Sequence record: OR234014.1
DNA: 64,000 nucleotides
Source: Staphylococcus phage SAC
Reading direction: 5' to 3' (one strand)
The notes under the pieces are model-generated. The model did no database searches and was not told the origin of the DNA. It was given only the letters and a program-made list of their open reading frames with translations. The translations under genes were made by a program, and so were the position numbers. This document shows, in pieces, positions 6,868 through 30,236 of the stretch (its first letter is position 1; the number at the start of each line of letters is the position of its first letter).

Positions 6868-7557
6868 CTATATAACTTTGAAACTGTCAATATTATTTTT
6901 AATATATTCCGTTTTTTGTTTGTACTGCTCTTCAGTTAGTTTATCTGATTCATAGTAGTCTTTGATTTGTTGTAAGGCTAATTTATACTTAATATATCCT
7001 TTATACGAATTAAATTGCTTTATTAACTCTTCGTTGTATTCTACCATATCATTATATGTTAATCCTATCTCTATATCTGCATCTATAGGATACTGTCTTA
7101 ACTCACCATTAATTTTTATTTTTAAGAAATCATAAGGAAGGTTCTCCATTACATGGACAATAACTTTAGCCATAATATTAACTTCTTCAGGAGGTGAGTC
7201 TACTACAATACTATCATGAACAGTAGCTACTAACTTCGATTTCATATTCTTATTTTGAATAAAGTCGTCAATATAAGTAATAGCCATGTTAGTAAGGTAA
7301 CCACCTGTACCTTGAATAATCGTGTTAAAGGACTGTCTAAGACCCTCATTTTTAATCTTTTTATCTCTAGATTGTGCTGAGTGTATATATCTTCTGTGTC
7401 CATTCATTGTTTCTACATATCCATGTTTTTGAACAAACTCATGAGTTTCATCTATAGACTTCTTAATAGCAGGTTTATTAGAATAAAACTTATTAAATAT
7501 TTCAGTAGCTTCATCAACTGTCATATTATTTTTACCTGCAAACGAAAACTCTGACTC
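6868..7557 (-). CDS. polA: DNA polymerase I family (PolA), exon 2 (begins ESEFSFAGKNN before the annotated Met)
   Basis: Contains motif C (KLVATVHDSIVVD). Upstream in frame, ESEFSFAG follows omega-G at 7558. Confidence 0.7.
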   Translation of the reverse strand, partial: ESEFSFAGKNNMTVDEATEIFNKFYSNKPAIKKSIDETHEFVQKHGYVETMNGHRRYIHSAQSRDKKIKNEGLRQSFNTIIQGTGGYLTNMAITYIDDFIQNKNMKSKLVATVHDSIVVDSPPEEVNIMAKVIVHVMENLPYDFLKIKINGELRQYPIDADIEIGLTYNDMVEYNEELIKQFNSYKGYIKYKLALQQIKDYYESDKLTEEQYKQKTEYIKNNIDSFKVI

Positions 7558-8637
7558 CGTTTATACCCTCGGTTTCCCGATATTTATTAGGGGACTAGAC
7601 TATATCTTAAGTAAATACGTTACTATCTACTTCTAGGCTATTCCATGTAGGTATGAGCTACATGTACTCTACTCGGTTATATTGCAATAAGCCCTCTCGG
7701 CGTAAAGCTCACCTTTTGATAGTCGTTCGATAAAATAATTTAAGTGTTTAAGTGTAATCAAATCGTTCTCTTTTCTCTATTTTGAATGTAATCCCATAAC
7801 AATCTTCACCGGTTTCCATTTTTCTAAAGTTAGTGCCTGACGTAGGTATATTTAGTCTCTTTAGTAGCTTAGTTTTTACTCTATCATAATCAATTTCCAC
7901 ATGATTCTTATAAGCAACATAGTGAGGTGCATAAAGTTTAGAAGGGTTTTCTACAGGTTGATAATTATATTCTTGTAGTGTTTTAAAAACCCAGTTCTTA
8001 TGATGTTTTCTTTCCCCTCTAAGAACTGCAGAAATATGGCTTTGAATTAAGTTATGTTCCTTAGCAAATTTAGACTGATTGAAGAATATATATTCTTTAC
8101 CTGTAGGGTCTATACCTAATATCTTTTTACTTCTTGAAGGTACAAATCCTAAGTTCTCTTCTCTAGTAGCCCATTTACATTTATCTAAGCTATATACTTT
8201 ATTACCTAGTTCTTTAATATCCTTATCTAACACTAACTCACCATTTTTATACTTCTCTAAACTCCAACCATCAATTAACTCTACATCCTTAAGAAAGTTA
8301 TTAAAATTATGCCATCTATCGTCTACTGTTATTCCTAGTAATCCATAATATTTATATTCCTTACATTTAGGATTATAACATCTGTCTATCATATGAGACC
8401 ATACATGAGCTAATTTAGAATATAGCTTATTGTGATTATATCTTTCTCCTATTTTAAATTCTATTTAAATCATCCTTACTTATTAAATTACACTTAAATT
8501 ATTCTACACAGGATTAGCATTTTAAAGCCTTCCCTGTTAGCATAGTTCTTAACTACCATTTCCTGTAGCTCCTAACGTGAACTATACACCCTATACTCAA
8601 TAGGTTTACCTAGTTTTACTACGGCTATATTTTGTTA
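7558..8637 (-). mobile_element. Group I intron in the DNA polymerase gene carrying an HNH homing endonuclease gene
   Basis: The internal guide sequence GCCGTA pairs with exon TACGGT. R-like CGAACGACTA (7722-7731, reverse complement) and S element AAGATATAGTC (7597-7608, reverse complement). The 3' end GGGTATAAACG is identical to tail-tube intron 1. Confidence 0.75.
7748..8392 (-). CDS. HNH homing endonuclease (I-HmuI-like), intron-encoded
   Basis: NPKCKEYKYYGLLGI...SLDKCKWATREENLG matches the HNH_3-type motif of phage homing endonucleases. Confidence 0.7.
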   Translation of the reverse strand: MIDRCYNPKCKEYKYYGLLGITVDDRWHNFNNFLKDVELIDGWSLEKYKNGELVLDKDIKELGNKVYSLDKCKWATREENLGFVPSRSKKILGIDPTGKEYIFFNQSKFAKEHNLIQSHISAVLRGERKHHKNWVFKTLQEYNYQPVENPSKLYAPHYVAYKNHVEIDYDRVKTKLLKRLNIPTSGTNFRKMETGEDCYGITFKIEKRERFDYT

Positions 8638-12690: not shown

Positions 12691-12988
12691 CCTTTTCTAG
12701 TGTGTCAATAATATCTTTAAATGTTTCAATATCAGCTACATGTGTTAACTGCACCATACCATCAGCTTTAAATAACTTCAATGTACCTTCGTATATAAGA
12801 ATGTATACATATGTATTATAAATAAACTCTAGCTGAAATTTACTGGATTTACTATCTGCTTTAGTATCATCTCCCCTATTAAACATCTTAATAGGGTCTT
12901 GTACATTACTTACTTGTGAGAAAATATCATTTGATTTGAATATATCTTCAGTTCTACTTAGTAATCCAAACGCTTCTTTTTTATTCAT
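12662..12988 (-). CDS. hypothetical protein
   Basis: ORF of 108 aa. Confidence 0.35.
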   Translation of the reverse strand: MNKKEAFGLLSRTEDIFKSNDIFSQVSNVQDPIKMFNRGDDTKADSKSSKFQLEFIYNTYVYILIYEGTLKLFKADGMVQLTHVADIETFKDIIDTLEKDDTENGKSE

Positions 12989-13000
12989 TTAGTCACCTCT

Positions 13001-13936
13001 TTAGGCTTCACAATTAATACAAATTTTAGATAAATTGAATTGTTGTGATGCATTTGTACCATGTTGATAATACAATGACTTAATACCATTAGACCATGCA
13101 AAGAGATAAAGTTCATTTAACTCCTCTGCTGTAACATGTTTAGGGTTAATCATAATGTTTATAGATTGTCCTTGGTCAATATATTTTTGTCTTGTAGAAG
13201 CTTGGTCTAATATATTATATTGATTAATTTCACCATATGTTTTAAATACTTCCTTTTCATAATCACTTAAGAAAGTTAGGTGTTGAACGGAACCATCATT
13301 GTCCCTAATACTCTCAATAACTTTTTTATTGTCCTTTCCTTTTTCTTTTAATAGTCTTTTAAGGTAAGGATTAATCATAGTTTTCTTTACTTTAGCAGTG
13401 TCTACAACGTAATAATTACTCATAAAAGGTTCAATTGATTTAGAAACTTGACCTAGGATAAATGAGCTCGAAGTCGTAGGAGCTACCGCCATCAAACACG
13501 AATTCCTTCTACCATACCCTTTAAGAATAGTAGGCTCTCCATAAAGTTTAGCTAACTGCTCACTAGCTTTATAAGTTTTTTCTTTTAATAATTTAAATAT
13601 CTCTTCATTAATTTGACTAGCTTTAATACTTTCAAAAGGTATGAGTTTTGATTGTAGGTATGAATGATATCCAAGAACGCCTATTCCTAAGGCTCTGTTC
13701 TCAACAGAAAAGTTATAAGCTCTCTCCATAAATTTAAATGCTTCTTGTTTATCTTTTTCAGCTGAGTCTCTTAGATATTCTAAGTCTCTAATAAACTCAG
13801 ACATAACAGCATCTAAAAAGTAAACAAGTGTCTCTACAGCATCCGTGTGTTTCCATTCATCATACTTAACAAGGTTCATACTAGATAGGTCACATACAAA
13901 TGACCAATCTTCTTTATTAGGTAACATAATTTCACT
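13001..13936 (-). CDS. nrdE: ribonucleotide reductase large subunit, exon 2 (begins SEI-MLPNKEDWSFVC)
   Basis: In-frame SEI precedes the Met. WSFVCDLSSMNLVKYDEW is the conserved region following NLCSEI. Omega-G at 13937. Confidence 0.75.
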   Translation of the reverse strand, partial: SEIMLPNKEDWSFVCDLSSMNLVKYDEWKHTDAVETLVYFLDAVMSEFIRDLEYLRDSAEKDKQEAFKFMERAYNFSVENRALGIGVLGYHSYLQSKLIPFESIKASQINEEIFKLLKEKTYKASEQLAKLYGEPTILKGYGRRNSCLMAVAPTTSSSFILGQVSKSIEPFMSNYYVVDTAKVKKTMINPYLKRLLKEKGKDNKKVIESIRDNDGSVQHLTFLSDYEKEVFKTYGEINQYNILDQASTRQKYIDQGQSINIMINPKHVTAEELNELYLFAWSNGIKSLYYQHGTNASQQFNLSKICINCEA

Positions 13937-14775
13937 CCTACATGTTCAATAGTGGTCGTTAATCACTACCAGTTCTCTAATTAACAATATTTATAGTTAG
14001 GGAATTTTTCAGAATTACATCTTCTGGTTAATGTATTTCTGTTTATTCCTAGCTCTTCAGAGCATATACCCATATTTTTATAAACTACGCCATCAACAAT
14101 AACTTTTTTAGCATTAGCGCTTTCTTTACCATACATCGGATTGTTTTTTCCTCGTCTATCCATTATATTCCACCCAAAACCTATCTCCATATTATAACCT
14201 TTTTTTACAGATTCGTACATGTCTATAAAAATTTGCTCTACCATGTAAGCAAACTTTTTATCCTCTGTACTAAAAGTGTATAATTCTTCTACATAAAAAT
14301 TCTCTTCACCATGTTTCATCATTGATTGGTGTAAATTAGTTGTTGAGCCTATCTTAGCTTTTCTAATATGATTTTTAAATCTATGTTGAACTGTTTTTGA
14401 TGTAATTCCGATGTATATTTTATTATTGTTTTTGTTTGTAATTTTATAAATATGGTACTCCATTTTCGACCCTCTTAATTATTATTGTTAATATGAACTT
14501 CTATATGTTTCCATATAGAGCAGACTATATCATCTTCCTTAATAAGGAAGTCCACCATTTCGATTTAAATAAGATTTACTTGATTATTACTCAATACTTA
14601 TACCACTTGGCTCTAACCTTATCCCTTCACTTATGTGAATAGGTTACGGATAGTCGTTAGGCATTTACAGATTTATAATCTGATTTAGCACGGTGTTGTC
14701 GTATATTTTAACTTAGATATTCACCGTTTAGATGGATTTTTCGATAGTAATTACTTACTAAAGGTGCAAATTTTT
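13937..14775 (-). mobile_element. Group I intron in nrdE/nrdA carrying a GIY-YIG homing endonuclease gene
   Basis: Exon 1 ends ...NLC (TGT) and exon 2 starts SEI, splitting the catalytic NLCSE motif. R-like CTAACGACTA (14651-14660, reverse complement) and S element GATATAGTCTG (14521-14531, reverse complement). Confidence 0.75.
13981..14463 (-). CDS. GIY-YIG homing endonuclease, intron-encoded
   Basis: IYKITNKNNNKIYIGIT matches the GIY-(10)-YIG motif. Confidence 0.75.
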   Translation of the reverse strand: MEYHIYKITNKNNNKIYIGITSKTVQHRFKNHIRKAKIGSTTNLHQSMMKHGEENFYVEELYTFSTEDKKFAYMVEQIFIDMYESVKKGYNMEIGFGWNIMDRRGKNNPMYGKESANAKKVIVDGVVYKNMGICSEELGINRNTLTRRCNSEKFPNYKYC

Positions 14776-15522
14776 ACACAAATTTGAGTTATTAATAGTC
14801 AATCCTTTGTCTTTATATACATCTACTGTATTACTATTTGCATTATCATGAAAGAAGATATAGGGGTATCCTATTTGTGTTCTTCTTGTTAATACTTTAG
14901 CCCATGTTTTTCTTTTTTCTTTGTCCCCATTAATCATGTCTAATAACCAATCATCAGTAACTGTTACCGCATGTGTTAAGTTTTGAATTGGATTACCTTC
15001 GGTACCAATCTCTAAAAACTCGTCAATATCTTTGTGTTCTATAGGTAGATAAGGGCTAAATCTTCCTCTTCTTTGGCTACCCTGACTTATCGTATCTGTC
15101 ATTTGCTCAAATAGCTTCATAAAATGAACGGAACCACTTGTCAGTCCATTATCAGTGATTTCTGAGCCTCTAGGTCTGATGTTACCGAAGTAACCACTTG
15201 TACCACCACCGTATTTACTCATCATACCTACTTCACTAGCAGTATTAAGTATCGATGGTATAGTATCATCTACCCAACTACCAAAACAACTAATACTAAA
15301 TCCTCTATCTTTCCCGAAATTAGACCATATAGGACTGGATAAGGAATAATAACCTTTACTCATATAATCATAAAACTTGTCAGAAAACCCATCAATACCT
15401 AAAATATCTTCAGCGTAATCTGCAATATCTTTAATTCTTTGTTCTGGTGTTTCACCATCACTTAAATAACCACGTTCTAGAAAAACTCTAGAATCATTAT
15501 TTAACCATTCAAAATTACTCAT
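14776..15522 (-). CDS. nrdE: ribonucleotide reductase large subunit, exon 1 (short N-terminus, no ATP cone)
   Basis: LSSPIWSNFG...SISCF (first catalytic Cys region) through ...NNSNLC. There is a stop codon immediately upstream of the ATG. Confidence 0.75.
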
Positions 15523-15537
15523 CTATATACACTGCCT

Positions 15538-16875
15538 TTATATCATTTTTAGTCTTAAAATAGCGTTTACTTTATCTTTAGTAACTCGTTTACCAGTATT
15601 TTCAAAATCAGATTCCGTTGAAAAAATAGTATCTTCCGTTACAGAATTACTAAATTTTGTATAGTTTACAGAACGTTTAGATAAAAAGTCCGTTAACTTA
15701 GTACTAATAACTTCATCATCAAACCATGACACTTCACTTAGTAACTCTTCATCAACATCAAAAAGTTTAGTATACCCAACAGCTACTAGAGAGTTATTAA
15801 GCCTATTTTTAATAAATTCTTGTACTACTTTCTTAGGTAAGAACTCTAGTTCCCCATCTTCATACATCCAATCAAGTAACCGTGTTTCTGATTCATAAGA
15901 TTTTTTACAGGCTGTGTAAACTGCATCTTCCATTTCTTTGTTGAACCACTCAGGTCTTTCTTCTCTAAGAATATTAATGATTTCTGTTCCAAATAATCCA
16001 TGGATTTGCTCTTCTTTAGATGTAGCTTCAATAGCATTTGATAAACCTCTAAATAAGTTTTTATATTTATTAAAACTCATCATAATTAAAAATTGACTAA
16101 ATAAAGATACATGTTCAATAAATATAGAAAATAATAAAACAGATAGTACGTAATCTCTATCATCCTCACTCTTACTTAGTTTTACATGCATCGCTAACTC
16201 ATCAACACGTTCTTTAAGAGCAGGAATATCGTCAATTGTTTTAAACTCCTCATTCAAACCTAAAATCTCTAATAAATGTGAATAAGCGTCGGCATGACGT
16301 GCTTCACTCTCACTAAAAGTTGCACCCACAGCTCCAGTTTCCCATTTAGGCATTCTATGATATAGGTCACCCCAGAAAGTCTTTACTGCTACTTCTACTT
16401 GGGCAATTGCTAGCATAGCTTTTTTAATGGTCATTTGCTCATTGTATTTAACGTTATTCTTATAGTCTTGAATATCTGATGTATAGTTAAACTCAGTGTG
16501 TACCCAGTAACTTTGGCGTATAGCATCTTTATATTCTAATAATTCAGGGTATTCATAGGGTTTTAATTCTTTTCTTGGTTTGAATAAGTCTCTTTTACGC
16601 TCTCTTTTCTTTTTATCCCTATATAAAATAAAAGCTTTAGCAGTATCTTTATACATACTACTAAATAAAACTTCTTCTACTATATCTTGTATTAATTCTA
16701 CAGTAATGATAGTGTCTTGTTCTTCTAGTAAAGAGTCTACGTCATCTACAAGAGAATCAATAACATCTTCAATATATTCTTCTGTTTCTGAGTTGGCTCT
16801 TAAAATAGCATTAGTAACTTTACTTAAATCATAATCTACAACGGAACCATCACGTTTTTTTATTTGTGTAATCAA
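15538..16875 (-). CDS. nrdB: ribonucleotide reductase small (R2) subunit with an N-terminal ATP-cone domain
   Basis: N-terminal 90 aa match the ATP-cone consensus (IKKRDGSVVDYDLSKVTNAIL...AKAFILYRDKKK). The rest is a ferritin-like R2 (FSESEARHADAYS, IEATSKEEQIHGLFG). Confidence 0.7.
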   Translation of the reverse strand: MITQIKKRDGSVVDYDLSKVTNAILRANSETEEYIEDVIDSLVDDVDSLLEEQDTIITVELIQDIVEEVLFSSMYKDTAKAFILYRDKKKRERKRDLFKPRKELKPYEYPELLEYKDAIRQSYWVHTEFNYTSDIQDYKNNVKYNEQMTIKKAMLAIAQVEVAVKTFWGDLYHRMPKWETGAVGATFSESEARHADAYSHLLEILGLNEEFKTIDDIPALKERVDELAMHVKLSKSEDDRDYVLSVLLFSIFIEHVSLFSQFLIMMSFNKYKNLFRGLSNAIEATSKEEQIHGLFGTEIINILREERPEWFNKEMEDAVYTACKKSYESETRLLDWMYEDGELEFLPKKVVQEFIKNRLNNSLVAVGYTKLFDVDEELLSEVSWFDDEVISTKLTDFLSKRSVNYTKFSNSVTEDTIFSTESDFENTGKRVTKDKVNAILRLKMI

Positions 16876-16889
16876 CTAGTATCCCTTCC

Positions 16890-17498
16890 TTATATACCAT
16901 CAAGTAAATCATCAATCAACTTATCTTCTTTTTTACTAACTTTAGATATTTTAGATTTGACAACTCTATATGGTTTAATCTCTTTTTTGTTGTAGCAAGA
17001 TATAATATAAGAAGGTGTTAAGTTAGTCAACCCATCTATCGTAGTTATAAGAACATCATAAAAATGTTTGTCTTTTCTAACATTCTCTATAATAAAATCT
17101 GTTCTCATAATAGGGTACTCTTCATCTCTTAACTTAACATATACATCTTCTATATAAGGTAATGCTACATATGACTGTGCTCTATTTCTTGTAAATATTA
17201 AACAAGGAGTTTTATTAACTTGCAAACTATCTCCTATAACTTGTTCCCACCATGTATGAGGTTCTTTATTATTAAGTAGAACATTATCCATAATCCAATT
17301 TTCTCTATGTTTACACTCTACAACTAATGGAAAATTAGACTCTAAAGGTGCTACAATGTCACCGACAGCATTATTGTTAGCTCCCCATGATGCACCTCCT
17401 GATTGTGGAGACCTACTAAAAGGATAACCCCACCAATCAGAAAGTTCTTTGGCAATCTTTCTTTCGAATACATCACCTTTTTTTTTACTATTTGTCAT
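16890..17498 (-). CDS. PD-(D/E)XK-family nuclease-like protein (possible resolvase/recombination nuclease)
   Basis: GDIVAP...VVECKHR arrangement (D...E-x-K). Confidence 0.35.
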   Translation of the reverse strand: MTNSKKKGDVFERKIAKELSDWWGYPFSRSPQSGGASWGANNNAVGDIVAPLESNFPLVVECKHRENWIMDNVLLNNKEPHTWWEQVIGDSLQVNKTPCLIFTRNRAQSYVALPYIEDVYVKLRDEEYPIMRTDFIIENVRKDKHFYDVLITTIDGLTNLTPSYIISCYNKKEIKPYRVVKSKISKVSKKEDKLIDDLLDGI

Positions 17499-19383: not shown

Positions 19384-19977
19384 CTATATAGAAACAATTT
19401 TCTTCATTAATAGTAACATATTATAGATTTGACTTAAATCACTATAAGTATCATCTACCAGTGTTGTACTGTACTTGAGTACTTCATTTAATTGATAATC
19501 CTCTGATTTCTTACTAAAGGTGTTAATCTCTTCAATTGTTTTATCTTTCAAGTACTCGTTTGTACTGATTGTTTTTAGTGTTTGGAAAATAACACCTAAG
19601 TCACTAAATCCTTGCTTTACATCTTTACTTGTGAAGGGTTCATCTATAGTAGGTAAACCGTACAACTTAGCTTTCTCAATAATTTTCTCATTATCTTCTT
19701 TTATTTTTTCGTTATACCATAATCCTAATTTACATTTAACAGTTTCACATTTATATAAGGTTTGGTGAGTTAACCCATAAGACACAGGTAAGCTAGAGCG
19801 TAATCTCTTTAGTTCAATATATCCAAAGTCATTACTAGCTTTATACTCGTATGCATTACTTAAAGGATACCAGTCTACTAAAGTAGAAACAGGAATATTA
19901 TCTATATGTAACTTTGCATTGTTTGTATAATTTACTGTTAAAGATGCAAACTGGTTATCTTTAATCTTTAGTTTCAT
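19384..19977 (-). CDS. hypothetical protein
   Basis: ORF of 197 aa. Confidence 0.4.
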   Translation of the reverse strand: MKLKIKDNQFASLTVNYTNNAKLHIDNIPVSTLVDWYPLSNAYEYKASNDFGYIELKRLRSSLPVSYGLTHQTLYKCETVKCKLGLWYNEKIKEDNEKIIEKAKLYGLPTIDEPFTSKDVKQGFSDLGVIFQTLKTISTNEYLKDKTIEEINTFSKKSEDYQLNEVLKYSTTLVDDTYSDLSQIYNMLLLMKKIVSI

Positions 19978-21904
19978 TATTTAATTCCTTTCTTAGTGTA
20001 GCTACACCGTTTTCTTTTACTACCGTAATTGTATTCTCAAATAAAGGTGCTAGACTCTTATTATGAGTAATAACAAAAATAGTACCTACTGTTTTTAGTC
20101 TATCTTTTAGTAGTTTAACTACGTTCTCACAACCAATAGTGTCTAGACCATCAAAGCATTCATCGTAAAGGGCTATATTTGTAGATATATCTTCTTTACT
20201 CATAATTAAGTCTTGGATAGCAAAACTAATAGCTAGGTCAATACGTTTTTGCTCTCCTGCTGAATTAGATTTGTAAGACTCTCCTCCATTGTTATTCTTA
20301 ACAATAACATCGAACTTATCTTTAAGTTCTCCCTTAGCATTTTCTACTTGTGTTTGAAATTCAATTTCGATATCCGAACCCGCTAATATTTGTAAATACT
20401 CATTAGCTTTATCATTTAAGAACGGTGTAATAAAGTCTAATATTACAGAACGTAATCCTTTATTACTAAATGCATCTACAGCTTGTTTATATTTTGTTTT
20501 CTTACTCTCTAATTGTACTATATTTTCCTTATGTTTGTCAATAGTATTGTCAATATCTTTTAGTTCTTTATTGTGTAATTCTTCATTAGGTTCTTCTATA
20601 TAAGAGTAATCATTTAATATTGGTTCTTTTAAATTAGCTTTAGTGTTTTCTAATTGGCTAATTTCATCATATACTTCTTGCTGTTCTCTGTATTGCCGTT
20701 GAATATCATCATCATGTTTTTTCTTTTCTATATCTTCTTGCTGTATAAATTGTTGTAATTCTTTAGATTTAGCTAGTAGCTCTTCTTTCTTATTAATTAT
20801 AGTCTGCTCATTATGTTCGTACTGAGATATTTTAGCTTGTTTTTCTTTAATTTGTAATTCTAAGTTTTCTTTTTCTTTTATTTTGTGTGTATTATCTATA
20901 GGAGAACCACAAACAGGACAATGGTCATTTGTATCTAGTTTATTAATAGATTGTTTTAATTGATTAATTATATTTAGAGTTGTATTCTTATTTGTTGTTT
21001 CTTGACTCAATAATGGCAATAATTTATCATTAATATTTGTGTTAATCTTTTCAATACCTTGGTTAGCTTTTGTATAATTTTCACTAAATACAAATTCAAA
21101 GTCTTCAACTTTAGGAATACTACCTTTACATACACCAATCTGATTGTCTAAATCTTTTAATTTATTCTCGTACTCTTGTTTCTTTTGATTAAACTGTTCC
21201 TCTTCTTGCTTCTTACGCTCTAATAAGTTATTATATTTATTTACTTCATTATTATATTGTTCTTGTTTTAGGTTTCTTTTATATTCTAGTTTTTCTATTT
21301 CTTGTTGTTCTTTACTTTGTTTCTCCTCTACTTCTTTAACTTTTTCTTTAGCTACTTCTTGGGCTTGCTTATAAATATCAGTCTTAGTAATAGATTCTAG
21401 TATTTCTTTTTTACCTTTGTCGGTAGCTTGTGAAAACATAGGAATGTCTCCTTGACCATATATAATAGCATTTACATATGTATTAAAAGGAATACCAAAT
21501 AACTCTTGTATTTGAGTATCCGTAACATCATTTGTAGAGCCTGTTATCTCTTTGTTATTACAGAACAGCTTAACCTTGTTCTTGTGTTCCTTGTGTTTAC
21601 GATATCTTTCGATTAAATACTCGTCTTTACCTATGTTGAAAGAAAGCTTAACGTAGGTGTCTTTCTTCTTATACTTATTAACAACATCATCTGCCTTTAA
21701 ACCTTTCTCAGTCTTTCCGAACAGTGCATATGTGATAGAGGATATCATGCTTGTTTTACTTGTTCCATTACTTTCAAAACTATCATTTGTTTTATTAATA
21801 CCTTCAATAAGTACAAGACCTTGCTTATCCAGATTTAGCTTGATATGCTCAATAGCTAAAAAGTTATTCATCTCTACATAATTAAACTTAACCATTTGTA
21901 CCAC
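19961..21904 (-). CDS. sbcC: SbcC/Rad50-like recombination ATPase
   Basis: N-terminal Walker A (GINKTNDSFESNGTSKTS). Long coiled coil with a CPVCGS zinc hook. C-terminal signature and Walker B (LYDECFDGLD). Confidence 0.7.
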   Translation of the reverse strand: MVQMVKFNYVEMNNFLAIEHIKLNLDKQGLVLIEGINKTNDSFESNGTSKTSMISSITYALFGKTEKGLKADDVVNKYKKKDTYVKLSFNIGKDEYLIERYRKHKEHKNKVKLFCNNKEITGSTNDVTDTQIQELFGIPFNTYVNAIIYGQGDIPMFSQATDKGKKEILESITKTDIYKQAQEVAKEKVKEVEEKQSKEQQEIEKLEYKRNLKQEQYNNEVNKYNNLLERKKQEEEQFNQKKQEYENKLKDLDNQIGVCKGSIPKVEDFEFVFSENYTKANQGIEKINTNINDKLLPLLSQETTNKNTTLNIINQLKQSINKLDTNDHCPVCGSPIDNTHKIKEKENLELQIKEKQAKISQYEHNEQTIINKKEELLAKSKELQQFIQQEDIEKKKHDDDIQRQYREQQEVYDEISQLENTKANLKEPILNDYSYIEEPNEELHNKELKDIDNTIDKHKENIVQLESKKTKYKQAVDAFSNKGLRSVILDFITPFLNDKANEYLQILAGSDIEIEFQTQVENAKGELKDKFDVIVKNNNGGESYKSNSAGEQKRIDLAISFAIQDLIMSKEDISTNIALYDECFDGLDTIGCENVVKLLKDRLKTVGTIFVITHNKSLAPLFENTITVVKENGVATLRKELNNETKD

Positions 21905-22154
21905 CTTCTTTTAACAATTTAAAGAAACATTGATGTGAACCATAATCTAGAATATAACAATCTTCTTGTTCAATAACCCTCGTATAATAATGAGCGTAGT
22001 TAGCTTCCTCTAGTACTTTGTTAATAAGGTACATCGCATCATCAATATTTTTAACATTACATACATCATATGTTCTTTTATTATGTAAGAACTGTAAAAT
22101 AGGTTTAGATTTATCTATACTTGGTTTAATATTCTTTATAATAATATCTATCAT
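21888..22154 (-). CDS. hypothetical protein
   Basis: ORF of 88 aa. Confidence 0.35.
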   Translation of the reverse strand: MIDIIIKNIKPSIDKSKPILQFLHNKRTYDVCNVKNIDDAMYLINKVLEEANYAHYYTRVIEQEDCYILDYGSHQCFFKLLKEGGTNG

Positions 22155-22155
22155 A

Positions 22156-23187
22156 CTACAACACCGCCTTTAAACACTCTAGAAGCTCATCTTTTGCTTC
22201 TGGATAGTATTTGTCTGCATAACTAGAAGTAATCGTTATAGGGCTGTCAGACACGTCAGCGTCGACTCTCTTTTCTACCGTGTATTCTTTCTTCATTTGT
22301 ACTTGTACATTAGATTCATCTTCTGTTTTATCTAATTCAATTACTTTAGCTTGTTCTGGAGTACCAATAAACCTAATAAAGTGACCTTGGTTTACTAAAT
22401 CATTCATGTTATCTGGTACATTGTCACCTTGCACTGTAATAAACTTTCTAGTATCTAATGGAATGAACGTTGATGTTAGCTTATCTGTATCTATTAAATG
22501 TACACCATTAGCTTCTTGTTCATCTGAAAAGGATTGTTGCATTAGAGAACCACCATACATATGATTAGGGTTATTGTTTAAATATTGTCTTCTATGATAG
22601 TGACCAAGAAGAATAAAATCATATTTTTCTGGTAATAGGTCTTGGTAACCAAATGCACCTTCTAATCTGTGTGAGCCTTTACCTGTTAAACTATTCTCTA
22701 CGCCTAAATGTGCTACTAATATATTTACTTTATCTTTTTGGTAAGATTTTTTAATATACTCCTTAATTTCTTCTGTTTCATCTCCATAAGCACACATAGT
22801 TAATTGTACTTTACTAGAAAGTGAGTCACTACGTAAATCTTTAGTTACTTCCACATTAGGTAATGTTTCAAAGATATCAATACTAGATTCCGTATATAAA
22901 GAATTAGACACAGCATCATGATTTCCTCTAACCATATATACTTTAACATCTTGATTCTTAGCAAAGGTTTCAAATACCTTATTATATACTCTAGTATCTA
23001 CCGCATTTCTCTTATGGAATAAATCTCCTCCAAATATAACTTTAGCTTTATTTTCTCTAGCTAAATCAAATACTTTTTGTAATGTCTCAATTTGTTCTTT
23101 AAATCTATCATTACCATATTCTTCATCAGGTTTACTATAATTCGTAAACATATGAAAATGGCTATCTGTAAAAAATATAAATTTCAT
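22156..23187 (-). CDS. sbcD: SbcD/Mre11-like nuclease (calcineurin-like phosphoesterase)
   Basis: FFTDSHFH, GGDLFH and VRGNHD metallophosphatase motifs. Confidence 0.7.
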   Translation of the reverse strand: MKFIFFTDSHFHMFTNYSKPDEEYGNDRFKEQIETLQKVFDLARENKAKVIFGGDLFHKRNAVDTRVYNKVFETFAKNQDVKVYMVRGNHDAVSNSLYTESSIDIFETLPNVEVTKDLRSDSLSSKVQLTMCAYGDETEEIKEYIKKSYQKDKVNILVAHLGVENSLTGKGSHRLEGAFGYQDLLPEKYDFILLGHYHRRQYLNNNPNHMYGGSLMQQSFSDEQEANGVHLIDTDKLTSTFIPLDTRKFITVQGDNVPDNMNDLVNQGHFIRFIGTPEQAKVIELDKTEDESNVQVQMKKEYTVEKRVDADVSDSPITITSSYADKYYPEAKDELLECLKAVL

Positions 23188-23217
23188 TAGTGTCCTCCTT
23201 TAGTACGTTATGATAAA

Positions 23218-28240: not shown

Positions 28241-29551
28241 CTACTTTCCTAATTCTTTAATTTCAAATTTTTCTTCTTCATATATTTTTCTACGCTCATT
28301 AGAATGTTTATATAAAAACTTATGTGTCATATCATTAAAATCAAATATCTGTGTTGTATTATCTTCTTTCTTTTTACGTAACGCACGACCTACACGTTGT
28401 AGTGTTTGTCGTAAAGATTTACCACCTGCACCTAGGATTAATGAACGAATACCACTGATATCAACACCCTCATCAATAAGGCTTGTAGCAATCATAACTT
28501 TAAGTTTACCATTACGCATTTCATCTAACTTTTGTTTACGCATATCCGACTCTATTTCACCATGTAAAAAGAAATTCTCTACACCCATTTCATTCAACAT
28601 AGTGGATAGTATTTCACCATGCTCAACAAAATTAATAATAATAAGCGTAGCTTTATCTTGATTATACCACTTAGCTGTTAGTTTTGCAATAAGTTTATTT
28701 CTAAACTCGTTATGTACAATACCTTTATTATATGCATCCCTGTAATCCTTAATATTATCTATATCATCAGGGTTAGCAATAGGGATAATATTTATTGTAG
28801 GTCTAGCTGAATAGCCATTCTCGATTAAAAACTCATTAGATGTTCTTACAATAATATCTCCGAATAATGCTTGCATACGCATCCATAGTAGCTCATCTTT
28901 CATGTCTATGGAGCCTGTTAGTGCTATCCTGTATAGTGCATTCTCACAGGACATTAAACTTGTATACCATGAATCTGATTTACTGTGATGTGCTTCATCA
29001 ACTATCATTACAGCTATAGAGTCTAGGAACTCACGCATTTTATGATATTTATCATAGCTCTTTTGATTTTTCTTTCTTACTTCTTTTTGGAAAATAACAT
29101 TATGATTGTTTAATGCCATTAATACTTCAGCATCCGTCTTTGAATTATGATAAATATCTTGAAGTATATCAAGCACATTCTGCTCTACTTTAGTTTTAGG
29201 TGTTGTACTTTCTAATAATAACTTAAGTAACCTTTTTTGATTTTTACCACCTTCAAATTTAGGAAGTATCTCTTTAGCTATCTTTTTACTTAAGTTTACT
29301 TTAGCAGATACTTTTACTCCTTCTGTAGGGTCTTTTAAGTTAGAGTTAACAGTAGGAATCATAACTACAGTTACTTGTTTAACATCAAACTTACCAGAAC
29401 CTACTTTACCTACTGATATATTCAATCGTTCACTTAAACGGTCAGCAGATTGATTAAAAATCTCAGTAGAACTTGTAAAAAAAGCTACACGCTCTCCTTT
29501 TTCTAGTTGTGGTAATAGTTGGTCTATGATACCGCTAGCAACCTCTGTTTT
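28241..29551 (-). CDS. SF2 (DEAH-type) DNA helicase, exon 2 (begins KTEVASG...)
   Basis: DEAH box (MIVDEAHHS) and helicase-C motif (QRVGRALR). The annotated TTG start codon is the end of the intron (omega-G at 29552). Confidence 0.7.
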   Translation of the reverse strand, partial: KTEVASGIIDQLLPQLEKGERVAFFTSSTEIFNQSADRLSERLNISVGKVGSGKFDVKQVTVVMIPTVNSNLKDPTEGVKVSAKVNLSKKIAKEILPKFEGGKNQKRLLKLLLESTTPKTKVEQNVLDILQDIYHNSKTDAEVLMALNNHNVIFQKEVRKKNQKSYDKYHKMREFLDSIAVMIVDEAHHSKSDSWYTSLMSCENALYRIALTGSIDMKDELLWMRMQALFGDIIVRTSNEFLIENGYSARPTINIIPIANPDDIDNIKDYRDAYNKGIVHNEFRNKLIAKLTAKWYNQDKATLIIINFVEHGEILSTMLNEMGVENFFLHGEIESDMRKQKLDEMRNGKLKVMIATSLIDEGVDISGIRSLILGAGGKSLRQTLQRVGRALRKKKEDNTTQIFDFNDMTHKFLYKHSNERRKIYEEEKFEIKELGK

Positions 29552-29798
29552 CAATTATGTTACGATTAGGTTCGTTACTCCTAACCTTCTTGTAGTCTCC
29601 TACAAAGTTCAGACTATATCTTAACCATATCTAATGAGACTTAGGTTCTCCCTGTTTCCAATCACTTGATTGTACATAATAGTCGTTGCACCTTCCTAGT
29701 AATTTATTAAGCTTGGCTCATGATTGTCTCAAATGAGAGAGTTCCCATGAATTAAAGGAGTTACACTTATAATATTTCTACTATAAGGGGCAAAATTT
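29552..29798 (-). mobile_element. ORF-less group I intron in the helicase Walker A codons
   Basis: Exon 1 ends ATNAG (GGT) and exon 2 starts KTEV, restoring GxxxxGKT. R element GTTCAACGACTA (29680-29690 region, reverse complement) and S element GATATAGTCTG (29610-29623, reverse complement). The 5' end resembles the nrdE intron. Confidence 0.7.
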
Positions 29799-30236
29799 AC
29801 CTGCATTGGTAGCTTGCTTACATATACCATTATAATTGACTAAACTATTAAACACAGCTTCATACTGATAGTCACGTAATGTAATCTTACCTACGTTATT
29901 ATCTAGTAGCTGTATTTCATCATCAATATCTTCTTCAGCTAAAAAGCTTTCAGATTTTTCATCAATAATTTCGTATTGAAAGTTATGTCTTGATTGTAAC
30001 TCACCTAGTAATGTTATCATCTTAGGTAACAACCCACTAGGGAATTTGTTCTCAGCATAATCGTAGAAATCCACATAACCATCCCACACACCTCGTTTAA
30101 AAGCTAAGCTATGTTGATAGCCCTCTTTCTTAGCTCCTAACGTTTTATGAACACGCTTAAGTATGATATCTTTAATATACCCGTCACTTTCATCAAAATC
30201 TACATATGTATATATATTCTGTTGTCTTAATTGCAT
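29799..30236 (-). CDS. SF2 helicase, exon 1
   Basis: RDYQYEAV (Q/Ia-like motif) followed by ...KQATNAG (first half of Walker A). The annotated KFCPL-stop tail is intron read-through. Confidence 0.7.

What the first reader, a model, noticed from the sequence alone, without database searches (positions are those of the whole stretch)
29552..29798. Compact ORF-less group I intron (247 nt) splitting the Walker A GKT of an SF2 helicase, with a weak P1
Exon reconstitution is unambiguous at protein level: ...ICKQATNAG + KTEVASGII gives GxxxxGKT. The annotated exon 2 start (TTG) is actually the intron terminus with omega-G. P1 pairing with the first 30 nt of the intron is only 3 bp (GCC with GGT), so splicing may depend on P10 or an alternative guide sequence. 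That makes this a good candidate for regulated or inefficient splicing of an essential helicase.
Basis: partly seen in the sequence, partly recalled or inferred. Interest (0 to 1): 0.55.

Follow-up and report, generated by a model that had tools for sequence, protein, structure and literature searches.

The report
Known self-splicing intron in phage helicase
The 247-base insert is a genuine, already reported Twort-type group I intron that splits the ATP-binding loop of the helicase gene of a Staphylococcus Silviavirus phage. Its short exon-recognition helix is shared with sister introns and is not evidence of regulated splicing.

Summary
Window 29552-29798 (minus strand) is an ORF-less group I intron: Rfam RF00028 scores 91 bits, E 5e-22. 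It starts after a U and ends in G at 29552, and that G is the last base of the "TTG start" of the downstream ORF. Removing it gives a 582-aa ResIII/Helicase_C protein that aligns without gaps to the intronless 582-aa DhlA helicase of Kayvirus phages.

The window is 100% identical to Staphylococcus phage StAP1 (genus Silviavirus). The split helicase of Romulus/Remus is in the literature, and some GenBank records already label this stretch intron_gpI, so it is not new.

The exon-guide pairing really is only 3 bp (GGU/GCC). Two intron-internal pairs bring P1 to 5 bp, and a 4-bp P10 (UUUU/AAAA) is possible. Four sister introns, in another Silviavirus helicase, a DNA polymerase and two terminase sites, use the same GGU/GCC design. 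The Twort orf142 introns use 4 bp. "Regulated or inefficient splicing" therefore has no support.

Side observations:
- A divergent Silviavirus carries the intron one codon upstream, with a compensating guide sequence.
- Twort and some Kayvirus helicases carry a LAGLIDADG intein 3 nt downstream.

The parts
29799..30236 (-). Helicase (dhlA-type) exon 1, 146 codons, ending ...ATNAG (GCA GGT). A GGAG ribosome-binding site lies upstream of the ATG at 30236.
   Evidence: It is colinear with residues 1-146 of the intronless HSA30 helicase.
29552..29798 (-). ORF-less group I intron of the Twort type, 247 nt.
   Evidence: Rfam RF00028 at 91 bits, E 5e-22. In a 14-intron alignment, 94.6% of cells are paired and 41 of 67 pairs show compensatory change.
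28241..29551 (-). Helicase exon 2 (KTEVASG... through DEAH and Helicase_C to the stop codon).
29789..29801 (-). P1 hairpin. Exon GGU (29801-29799) plus intron AA (29798-29797) pair with UU-GCC (29793-29789). The U.G wobble at the 5' splice site is U29799 with G29791.
   Evidence: U.G is invariant in 14 of 14 family members, and pairs -2 and -3 covary with the insertion site.
29789..29795 (-). Internal guide sequence 5'-UUUUGCC-3'. GCC binds the 5' exon (P1); UUUU can bind the first four bases of exon 2 (P10).
29548..29551 (-). 3'-exon partner of P10 (AAAA).
   Evidence: On its own it is weak: 11.6% of positions on this strand would pair as well. It is supported by the covarying P10 in VL10 (UUACU/GGUAA).
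29781..29783 (-). In-frame UAG that ends translation of the exon-1 frame five codons into the intron, inside the 5' strand of P2.
29766..29787 (-). P2, 9 bp with a GAAA tetraloop.
   Evidence: helix 2: 8 of 9 pairs show compensatory change.
29648..29760 (-). P3 (29760-29755 with 29653-29648). It encloses P4 (29750-29745 / 29723-29718), a short P5 (29738-29727), P6/P6a (29717-29690), the 5' strand of P7 (29684-29680) and P7.2 (29672-29659). No P7.1 is present.
   Evidence: helices 3-10. P7.1 is present in VL10 and Twort I2 but absent here.
29612..29646 (-). P8 (29646-29624, irregular), J8/7, and the 3' strand of P7, UAGUC (29616-29612).
   Evidence: P7 is invariant in 14 of 14 members.
29564..29606 (-). 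P9 (29606-29589, GAGA tetraloop) and P9.1 (29586-29564, 9-nt loop AGUAACGAA).
   Evidence: helices 12-13.
29552..29552 (-). Omega-G, the last intron nucleotide. The 3' tail CGUAACAUAAUUG is identical to that of Twort orf142 I2 and I3.

Best explanation

Proposed steps, inferred from the anatomy and from the established group I pathway:
1. Exon 1, intron and exon 2 are transcribed as one pre-mRNA.
2. The guide sequence UUUUGCC pairs its GCC with the exon-1 end GGU, with a U.G wobble at the splice site. Two intron A-U pairs extend this to a 5-bp P1.
3. Exogenous G bound at P7 attacks after U29799.
4. UUUU can then switch to pair with the AAAA that opens exon 2 (P10), which places omega-G 29552 in the G site.
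5. The exons are ligated to give ...ATNAG-KTEVASG..., a 582-aa SF2 helicase.

The short exon recognition is a shared trait of a small group of sister introns that all sit after GGU. It is not a special regulatory device. The ribozyme anatomy, the junctions and the colinearity of the product are shown here. Catalysis itself is inferred from homology.
For: - Rfam RF00028 scores 91 bits, E 5e-22, over the full-length model.
- In the 14-member alignment with the structure drawn on it, 94.6% of cells are paired, against 36-43% when partners are slid. 41 of 67 pairs show compensatory change, and 0 of 500 shuffles reach this.
- U(-1).G occurs in 14 of 14 members, and every intron ends in G.
- The core is 67-74% identical to Twort orf142 I2/I3, with an identical 3' tail. 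The Twort record annotates orf142 as joined exons containing group I introns.
- The spliced product is 582 aa with ResIII + Helicase_C domains. It aligns without gaps to the intronless HSA30 helicase, also 582 aa.
- A 400-nt query spanning the spliced junction aligns as one continuous piece in about 290 Kayvirus, Listeria-phage and Bacillus-phage genomes. It aligns as two pieces in about 46 Silviavirus genomes.
- VL10's guide sequence UUACU-GCC matches its own exons GGU|GGUAA, while the window's UUUU-GCC matches GGU|AAAA. Swapping partners gives only 1-2 pairs.
- The literature lists the Romulus/Remus helicase among split or intron-containing genes.
Against: - I found no transcript or in vitro splicing data for this particular intron. 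The primary papers (Vandersteegen 2013; Landthaler and Shub 1999, 2002) are not in the library.
- P1 is at the short end of the family: 3 exon pairs and -1.8 kcal/mol.
- P7.1 is missing and P5 is only 4 bp.
- The window's own 4-bp P10 is weak statistically, because 11.6% of positions on this A-rich strand would do as well.
- A plain minimum-free-energy fold does not recover the core and scores z = -1.8, as expected for a pseudoknotted ribozyme.
Confidence: 0.92

Rival explanations
1. The intron does splice, but its 3-bp exon recognition makes splicing slow, dependent on P10 or a protein, or timed, so that helicase production is regulated.
For: - The exon-IGS pairing is only 3 bp, and the P1 hairpin (-1.8 kcal/mol) is weaker than Twort I2/I3 (-3.5 and -3.3).
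- The pol intron in the same window has a 5-bp exon-IGS pairing, ACGGU/GCCGU.
- Three of the five GGU/GCC introns have long P10s of 4, 5 and 8 bp, against 0-4 in the 4-bp group. This fits P10 compensating for a short P1.
- A review speculates that phage introns act as 'on-switches' (PMC11878797).
Against: - The design is shared by sister introns in DNA polymerase and terminase, so it is not specific to the helicase.
- Two of them (Alsa_3 pol, BS1 terL) have only a 1-bp P10, so P10 compensation is not general.
- P1 energies overlap the family range.
- The Azoarcus ribozyme works with triplet recognition (PMC2241849).
- Nothing in the sequence points to a regulator.
- The intron is present in every Silviavirus genome of this type found in the search, and these are phages isolated and propagated as lytic.
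Confidence: 0.1
2. The intron is a dead relic, and the helicase is made as two polypeptides (151 aa and 437 aa) that assemble, or the gene is a pseudogene.
For: Most database records annotate two separate CDSs, the second starting at TTG 29554. The Romulus record places a predicted promoter inside the intron.
Against: - The split falls inside the P-loop (G|KT).
- There is no Shine-Dalgarno sequence upstream of the TTG. The nearest GGAG lies roughly 25 nt away.
- The promoter scan finds no excess over shuffles (4 found against 5.0 +/- 2.1) and nothing at the Romulus site.
- All catalytic-core helices are intact and covarying.
- Orthologues are single 582-aa proteins.
Confidence: 0.03
3. Splicing uses junctions other than 29798/29552.
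For: AAA occurs on both sides (intron start AAA, exon 2 start AAA), so the junction could be slid by 1-3 nt without changing the mRNA sequence.
Against: Only the 29799|29798 and 29552|29551 choice gives both U at -1, paired with the invariant guide G, and a terminal G. The slid alternatives end the intron in A.
Confidence: 0.02

Closest known systems
The same intron as already recorded in Silviavirus genomes (Romulus, Remus, Stau2, KSAP7/11, StAP1, CIFT_MFB_MRSA phages)
   Same: The locus is 99-100% identical. Romulus/Remus annotate the whole 1996-bp stretch as 'similar to DNA helicase'. Papers list the helicase among split or intron-containing genes (PMC7497331, PMC5526547). PV360683 and PV295866 label it intron_gpI.
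   Different: Nothing differs.
Phage Twort orf142 (tail tube) introns I2 and I3. These are the self-splicing introns of Landthaler and Shub 1999; I2 is the ribozyme crystallised by Golden et al. 2005 (cited in PMC3984707).
   Same: Same architecture (P1-P2, P3-P9, P7.2, P9.1), 67-74% core identity, identical 3' tail CGUAACAUAAUUG, similar size of 252 nt (286 nt for I3), and ORF-less.
   Different: The Twort introns pair 4 exon nucleotides (GCAU/GUGC), have P7.1 and a longer P5, and have little P10 (0-2 bp). The window intron pairs 3 (GGU/GCC), lacks P7.1, has a 4-bp P5, an extended P8 and a 4-bp P10.
Sister 'GGU/GCC' introns: VL10 helicase, Alsa_3 / PG-2021_27 DNA polymerase, phiSA_BS1 terL, CF5 terL
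   Same: All sit after GGU, use the guide GCC, have a short P5 and extended P8, are 244-256 nt long, and are 69-86% identical to the window intron.
   Different: They occupy different genes or sites. The P10 segment differs and matches each intron's own 3' exon in VL10 (5 bp) and CF5 (8 bp), but not in Alsa_3 or BS1 (1 bp). VL10 keeps P7.1.
Azoarcus pre-tRNA-Ile group I intron
   Same: Its guide sequence recognises only a triplet, CAU (PMC2241849 abstract). This shows that 3-nt exon recognition is compatible with an active ribozyme.
   Different: It belongs to a different subgroup and sits in a tRNA of a bacterial host. It is not a relative by sequence. I did not test subgroup assignment here.
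LAGLIDADG intein in the DhlA helicase of Twort and of Kayvirus S25-3 / S25-4
   Same: It interrupts the same P-loop of the same gene. The intein lies between K and T of GKT, 3 nt downstream of the window's intron site.
   Different: It is a protein-splicing element of about 418 aa with its own homing endonuclease domain. It is not an RNA intron.

Membership tests
Group I intron (Rfam RF00028) | The covariance-model score reaches the curated gathering threshold. | tested here: met
   91 bits against a threshold of 50, E 5.2e-22, model positions 1-253 of 253.
Group I intron (Rfam RF00028) | Conserved core helices P3-P9, including the P3/P7 pseudoknot, supported by covariation. | tested here: met
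   94.6% of cells paired, 41 of 67 pairs with compensatory change, slid controls at 36-43%. P7 GACUA/UAGUC is invariant.
Group I intron (Rfam RF00028) | The 5' splice site follows a U that forms a U.G wobble with the internal guide sequence in P1. | tested here: met
   U29799 pairs with G29791. U.G occurs in 14 of 14 aligned introns, and the two neighbouring pairs covary.
Group I intron (Rfam RF00028) | The intron ends in G (omega-G). | tested here: met
   G at 29552. All 14 relatives also end in G.
Group I intron (Rfam RF00028) | Removing the intron restores an uninterrupted gene colinear with intronless homologues. | tested here: met
   582 aa against 582 aa with no gaps. The junction query is continuous in about 290 genomes.
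Group I intron (Rfam RF00028) | G-dependent self-splicing of the transcript. | not testable with these tools
   I found no transcript or in vitro data for this intron. It is inferred from homology to the Twort orf142 introns.
Twort-type (IA2-like) phage introns | Extra P7.1 and P7.2 hairpins between P7 and P3, and P9.1 after P9. | tested here: inconclusive
   P7.2 (29672-29659) and P9.1 (29586-29564) are present and covary. P7.1 is absent here (UUAUGUA in its place) but present in VL10 and Twort I2. The subgroup label itself comes from memory of the Twort literature and was not tested.
Mobile (homing) group I intron | It encodes a homing endonuclease. | tested here: not met
   There is no ORF in the 247 nt, and the exon-1 frame stops after 5 codons. 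The neighbouring genes are a structural protein and Rep.
SF2 helicase (host gene) | Motif I (P-loop), motif II (DEAH), and the ResIII/DEAD and Helicase_C domains. | tested here: met
   Pfam ResIII at 1.1e-13 and Helicase_C at 4.8e-16 on the spliced protein. The product contains ATNAGKT and VDEAHH.

The most novel reading that the evidence does not exclude
The ORF-less 'GGU/GCC' introns form a lineage that reaches new sites by reverse splicing. They need only GGU plus whatever P10 they can evolve. This would explain their presence after GGU at five sites in three genes, including two helicase sites one codon apart.

In the helicase P-loop the intron would also act as a shield. It splits the target of the LAGLIDADG endonuclease carried by the intein that occupies the neighbouring codon in Twort and some Kayvirus phages. 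Intron and intein would then be competing occupants of one 6-nt hot spot.
Probability: 0.15. Interest if true: 0.45.

Novelty: already known. Interest (0 to 1): 0.15.

Why it matters
There is little new biology here. Group I introns in replication genes of Twort-like staphylococcal phages have been catalogued since 1999, and this one is already recorded.

The practical value is for annotation. Most of the roughly 46 Silviavirus records still list two ORFs ("DNA helicase" plus "hypothetical protein", or two "DNA helicase" CDSs) with a false TTG start. They should carry one joined CDS of 582 aa.

The comparative details are tidy material for people who study intron mobility. These are the family-wide 3-bp GGU/GCC recognition, the P10 that tracks the 3' exon, the one-codon shift in VL10 and the intein next door. 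They do not change current understanding.

Tried and rejected
- **Primary papers.** I tried to read Vandersteegen 2013 (PMC3592175) and Landthaler and Shub 1999 and 2002 (PMC22036, PMC113830). None is held, so any published splicing evidence for this intron could not be checked.
- **Silviavirus transcriptome data.** A search found nothing relevant.
- **Pattern scan of viral contigs.** Scanning with the conserved P9.1 region gave only 4 loci, mostly tail-tube introns. The phage GenBank collection was more useful.
- **Plain MFE folding.** It recovers P1, P2 and P9 but not the pseudoknotted core, and scores z = -1.8. I did not use it as evidence either way.
- **Promoter inside the intron.** The Romulus record annotates one, but the consensus scan did not find it, and promoter-like sites do not exceed shuffles. 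I rejected it as a basis for separate expression of exon 2.
- **A longer P1.** I looked for one in another register or further into the intron. There is none: A-4 and C-5 face C and C.
- **The window's P10 as standalone evidence.** I rejected this, because 11.6% of positions on this strand pair equally well with UUUU. It stands only together with the covarying VL10 and CF5 cases.
- **Alternative VL10 junctions.** These would give ATNGKT or a stop codon. I rejected them in favour of GGT|...G|GGT, which gives ATNGGKT as in Kayvirus.
- **Alsa_3 pol intron.** It did not reach the Rfam gathering score although it is 76% identical to the window intron in the core and aligns through all helices. I did not pursue this.

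Full report
**What is in the sequence.** All genes in this region lie on the minus strand. Exon 1 of a helicase gene runs from the ATG at 30236 to ...GCA GGT at 29801-29799. The next base, 29798, opens the sequence AAAUUUUGCCCC. The insert ends ...CGUAACAUAAUUG with G at 29552, and AAA ACA GAG GTT follows from 29551.

The mechanical ORF list gives two ORFs:
- 29781-30236: exon 1 plus five intron codons, then TAG.
- 28241-29554: this starts at TTG 29554-29552, so its "start codon" is the last three intron bases.

One slip: the rebuilt motif is QATNAGKT, an SF2 motif I, and not literally GxxxxGKT.

**Is it more than chance?** Rfam's group I intron model (RF00028) matches 29589-29808 on the minus strand at 91 bits (gathering score 50), E 5.2e-22, over the whole model. 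It is the only Rfam hit in the 64-kb window, even at E up to 1.

**Where the window comes from, and what is already known.**
- The helicase locus is 100% identical to Staphylococcus phage StAP1 and 99.5% identical to Romulus and Remus (genus Silviavirus, Twortvirinae).
- The Romulus and Remus records mark the whole 1996-bp stretch as "similar to DNA helicase".
- PMC7497331 states that in Remus and Romulus the helicase, among other genes, is reported as split and/or containing a group I intron, and that KSAP7/11 are arranged the same way.
- PMC5526547 lists the Romulus/Remus helicase among intron-containing genes.
- Two records (PV360683, PV295866) already annotate intron_gpI at this place.

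The feature is therefore already known. I could not read the primary description, Vandersteegen 2013. I found no transcript data for Silviavirus.

**The exons.**
- Joining 29799-30236 to 28241-29551 gives a 582-aa protein with ResIII (1.1e-13) and Helicase_C (4.8e-16) domains, a DEAH box and a faint UvsW_N match.
- It aligns end to end, without a gap, to the intronless 582-aa helicase of Kayvirus HSA30: ATNAGK-TEVASG against ATNGGK-TEVASG. This protein is the DhlA of Kayvirus nomenclature (582 aa).
- A 400-nt query made of the spliced junction aligns as one continuous piece in about 290 Kayvirus, Listeria-phage and Bacillus-phage genomes.
- The same query aligns as two pieces, 242-247 nt apart, in about 46 Silviavirus genomes.
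- There is no Shine-Dalgarno sequence before the TTG. Promoter-like sites in the region do not exceed shuffled controls.

This excludes separate expression of the two halves for practical purposes.

**The ribozyme.** I aligned the intron, with 8 nt of each exon, to 13 relatives:
- VL10 helicase;
- Alsa_3 DNA polymerase;
- phiSA_BS1 and CF5 terminase;
- Twort orf142 I2 and I3;
- several tail-tube introns;
- the PH15 hydrolase intron.

I then drew the helices on the alignment. In intron numbering (1 = window 29798):

| Helix | Intron positions | Note |
|---|---|---|
| P1 | exon -3..-1 + 1-2 with 6-10 | |
| P2 | 12-20 / 25-33 | GAAA loop |
| P3 | 39-44 / 146-151 | |
| P4 | 49-54 / 76-81 | |
| P5 | 61-64 / 69-72 | |
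| P6 | 82-84 / 107-109 | |
| P6a | 88-94 / 98-104 | |
| P7 | 115-119 / 183-187 | |
| P7.2 | 127-131 / 136-140 | |
| P8 | 153-175 | irregular |
| P9 | 193-199 / 204-210 | GAGA loop |
| P9.1 | 213-219 / 229-235 | |
| omega-G | 247 | |

On the alignment, 94.6% of cells form standard pairs, against 36-43% when partners are slid by 1-3 columns. 41 of 67 pairs show changes on both sides, and no shuffle out of 500 reaches any of the measures.

The core is 67-74% identical to Twort orf142 I2 and I3, and the 3' tail CGUAACAUAAUUG is identical. The Twort record annotates orf142 as four joined exons containing group I introns. I2 is the ribozyme whose crystal structure is cited in PMC3984707.

Compared with those, the window intron lacks P7.1, has a 4-bp P5 and has a longer P8. 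At 247 nt it is ordinary for the family, whose members mostly measure 244-257 nt (Twort I3 is 286 nt).

**The "weak P1".** The count is right. Only GGU pairs with the guide GCC, because A-4 and C-5 both face C. But P1 continues into the intron with A1-U7 and A2-U6, which gives a 5-bp hairpin of -1.8 kcal/mol.

Across the family:
- The splice-site U.G is invariant (14 of 14).
- The two adjacent pairs covary with the insertion site: CG, GC, AU and UA at one; GC and AU at the other.
- Five introns share exactly the GGU/GCC design with 3 exon pairs. They are the window intron, VL10 helicase, Alsa_3 polymerase, BS1 terL and CF5 terL.
- The other nine, including Twort I2 and I3, have 4 exon pairs.
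- P1 hairpin energies run from -1.4 to -2.6 kcal/mol in the first group and from -0.9 to -3.9 in the second.

The window's P1 is thus at the short end but inside the family range. It is a lineage trait found in several essential genes, not something particular to this helicase. The Azoarcus ribozyme shows that triplet recognition (CAU) is compatible with activity (PMC2241849).

**P10.** The four U's just upstream of GCC can pair with the AAAA that opens exon 2. This overlaps the intron-internal part of P1, as expected for the P1-to-P10 exchange between the two splicing steps.

By itself this is weak evidence. U pairs with A or G, and 11.6% of positions on this A-rich strand would do as well. 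It gains weight from relatives:
- VL10 has UUACU facing GGUAA: 5 bp, chance 1.5%.
- CF5 has AAAUUCAU facing AUGGAUUU: 8 bp, chance 0.03%.
- Pairing each intron with another intron's 3' exon gives 4 or more pairs in only 0.6% of 168 combinations, against 4 of 14 for the true partners.
- Swapping the window and VL10 partners gives only 1-2 pairs.
- Alsa_3 and BS1 have only 1 bp, so a long P10 is not a rule even in this group.

The step from there to "regulated or inefficient splicing" has no support in the sequence.

**How it most likely works.** The standard group I pathway applies (PMC3984707):
1. The pre-mRNA folds and GCC holds GGU in P1.
2. Exogenous G attacks after U29799.
3. The guide's U's engage exon 2, and omega-G 29552 enters the G site.
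4. The exons are joined.

Ribosomes that follow exon 1 stop at UAG 29783-29781, inside P2, before they reach the core. The anatomy, the junctions and the product are shown here. Catalysis is inferred from close homology to the Twort introns.

**Things seen on the way.**

*VL10.* This divergent Silviavirus carries an 86%-identical intron of 256 nt one codon upstream: ATN-GGT|intron|GGT-AAA-ACA, which gives ATNGGKT as in Kayvirus.
- Its exons are 94.5-96% identical to the window's.
- The 25 nt just upstream of the intron differ strongly: IVHIATNG against ICKQATNAG.
- This looks like a separate insertion or replacement event with co-converted flanks, rather than simple descent.

*Intein next door.* In Kayvirus S25-3 a 418-aa intein sits between K and T of the same GKT, 3 nt downstream of the window's intron site (GGK|CISKD...VNHN|TEVASG).
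- Pfam identifies it as Intein_splicing (1.4e-14) plus LAGLIDADG_3 (4.8e-15).
- By its record's note, Twort has the same arrangement.
- Three mobile elements therefore use three adjacent codon boundaries, G^G^K^T.

- The DNA polymerase is split at ...FGLIYG (GGT 8640-8638) and resumes at GAG TCA GAG TTT... from 7557. This gives ESEFSFAGKN, which matches Alsa_3's ETPFSFAGKN.
- The 1080-nt insert (7558-8637) carries a 214-aa ORF (7748-8392).
- It also carries AACGACTA (7727-7720) and AAGATATAGTC (7608-7598), which match the conserved P7 and J8/7 sequences of the aligned introns.
- Its guide sequence GCCGU pairs with ACGGU (5 bp).

*Target availability.* GGTAAAA, the full complement of the window's guide sequence, occurs 30 more times on the coding strand of the window. 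The 7-nt match alone does not explain where the intron sits.

**Verdict.** The feature is a member of a well-known family and is already on record for these phages. The proposed special significance of the short P1 is not supported.

Noticed in passing
L004 592-847 (Staphylococcus phage VL10, OP940114), compared with window 29552-29798: A divergent Silviavirus has an 86%-identical, 256-nt version of the intron one codon upstream (ATN-GGT|...|GGT-AAA-ACA). Its guide sequence UUACU-GCC matches its own exons. The exons are 94.5-96% identical to the window's overall, but the 25 nt next to the intron differ strongly, which resembles a co-conversion tract.
   Followed up: partly
L010 950-2203 (phage S25-3 helicase) and L011 (Twort helicase), corresponding to window 29548/29549: In some Kayvirus phages and in Twort the same helicase carries a 418-aa intein (Intein_splicing + LAGLIDADG_3) between K and T of GKT. 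That is 3 nt downstream of the window's intron site. Intron (two positions) and intein thus occupy three adjacent codon boundaries of one P-loop.
   Followed up: partly
window 7558-8637 (minus strand): The DNA polymerase I gene is split after ...FGLIYG (GGT 8640-8638) and resumes at GAGTCAGAG (from 7557). The 1080-nt insert holds a 214-aa ORF (7748-8392), the core motifs AACGACTA (7727-7720) and AAGATATAGTC (7608-7598), and a guide sequence GCCGU that pairs with exon ACGGU (5 bp). Rfam gave no hit here even at E up to 1, presumably because of the ORF.
   Followed up: partly
L003 3994-4237 (Alsa_3 pol), L005 301-548 (phiSA_BS1 terL), L006 294-539 (CF5 terL): ORF-less sister introns, 69-76% identical to the window intron in the core, all sit after GGU and use the guide GCC. 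They lie at different sites in DNA polymerase and terminase. CF5's first 8 intron bases are fully complementary to its 3' exon, an 8-bp P10.
   Followed up: partly
L003 3994-4237: The Alsa_3 polymerase intron did not reach the Rfam gathering score in the multi-locus scan. The near-identical PG-2021_27 copy (L007) did, at 63.7 bits. This is probably a filter or threshold effect.
   Followed up: no
window 12900-16900 and 19900-23200 (minus strand): By the StAP1 annotation, the ribonucleotide reductase alpha subunit and the exonuclease / DNA-repair genes are also fragmented. An HNH homing endonuclease gene lies near the RNR pieces. No Rfam intron hit falls in either region, so these splits may involve inteins, endonuclease genes or ORF-bearing introns.
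   Followed up: no
window, whole (minus strand): GGTAAAA, the exact complement of the intron's 7-nt guide sequence, occurs 31 times, 30 of them on the coding strand. Shuffles give 18.5 +/- 4.3. One of these sites (7530-7536) lies about 20 nt inside DNA polymerase exon 2, near the 3' splice site of the pol intron.
   Followed up: no
L001 2005-2033 (Romulus record), corresponding to window 29704-29732: The Romulus GenBank record annotates a MEME-derived promoter inside the intron, around P5 and the 3' strand of P4. A consensus sigma-70 scan of the window does not report it.
   Followed up: partly
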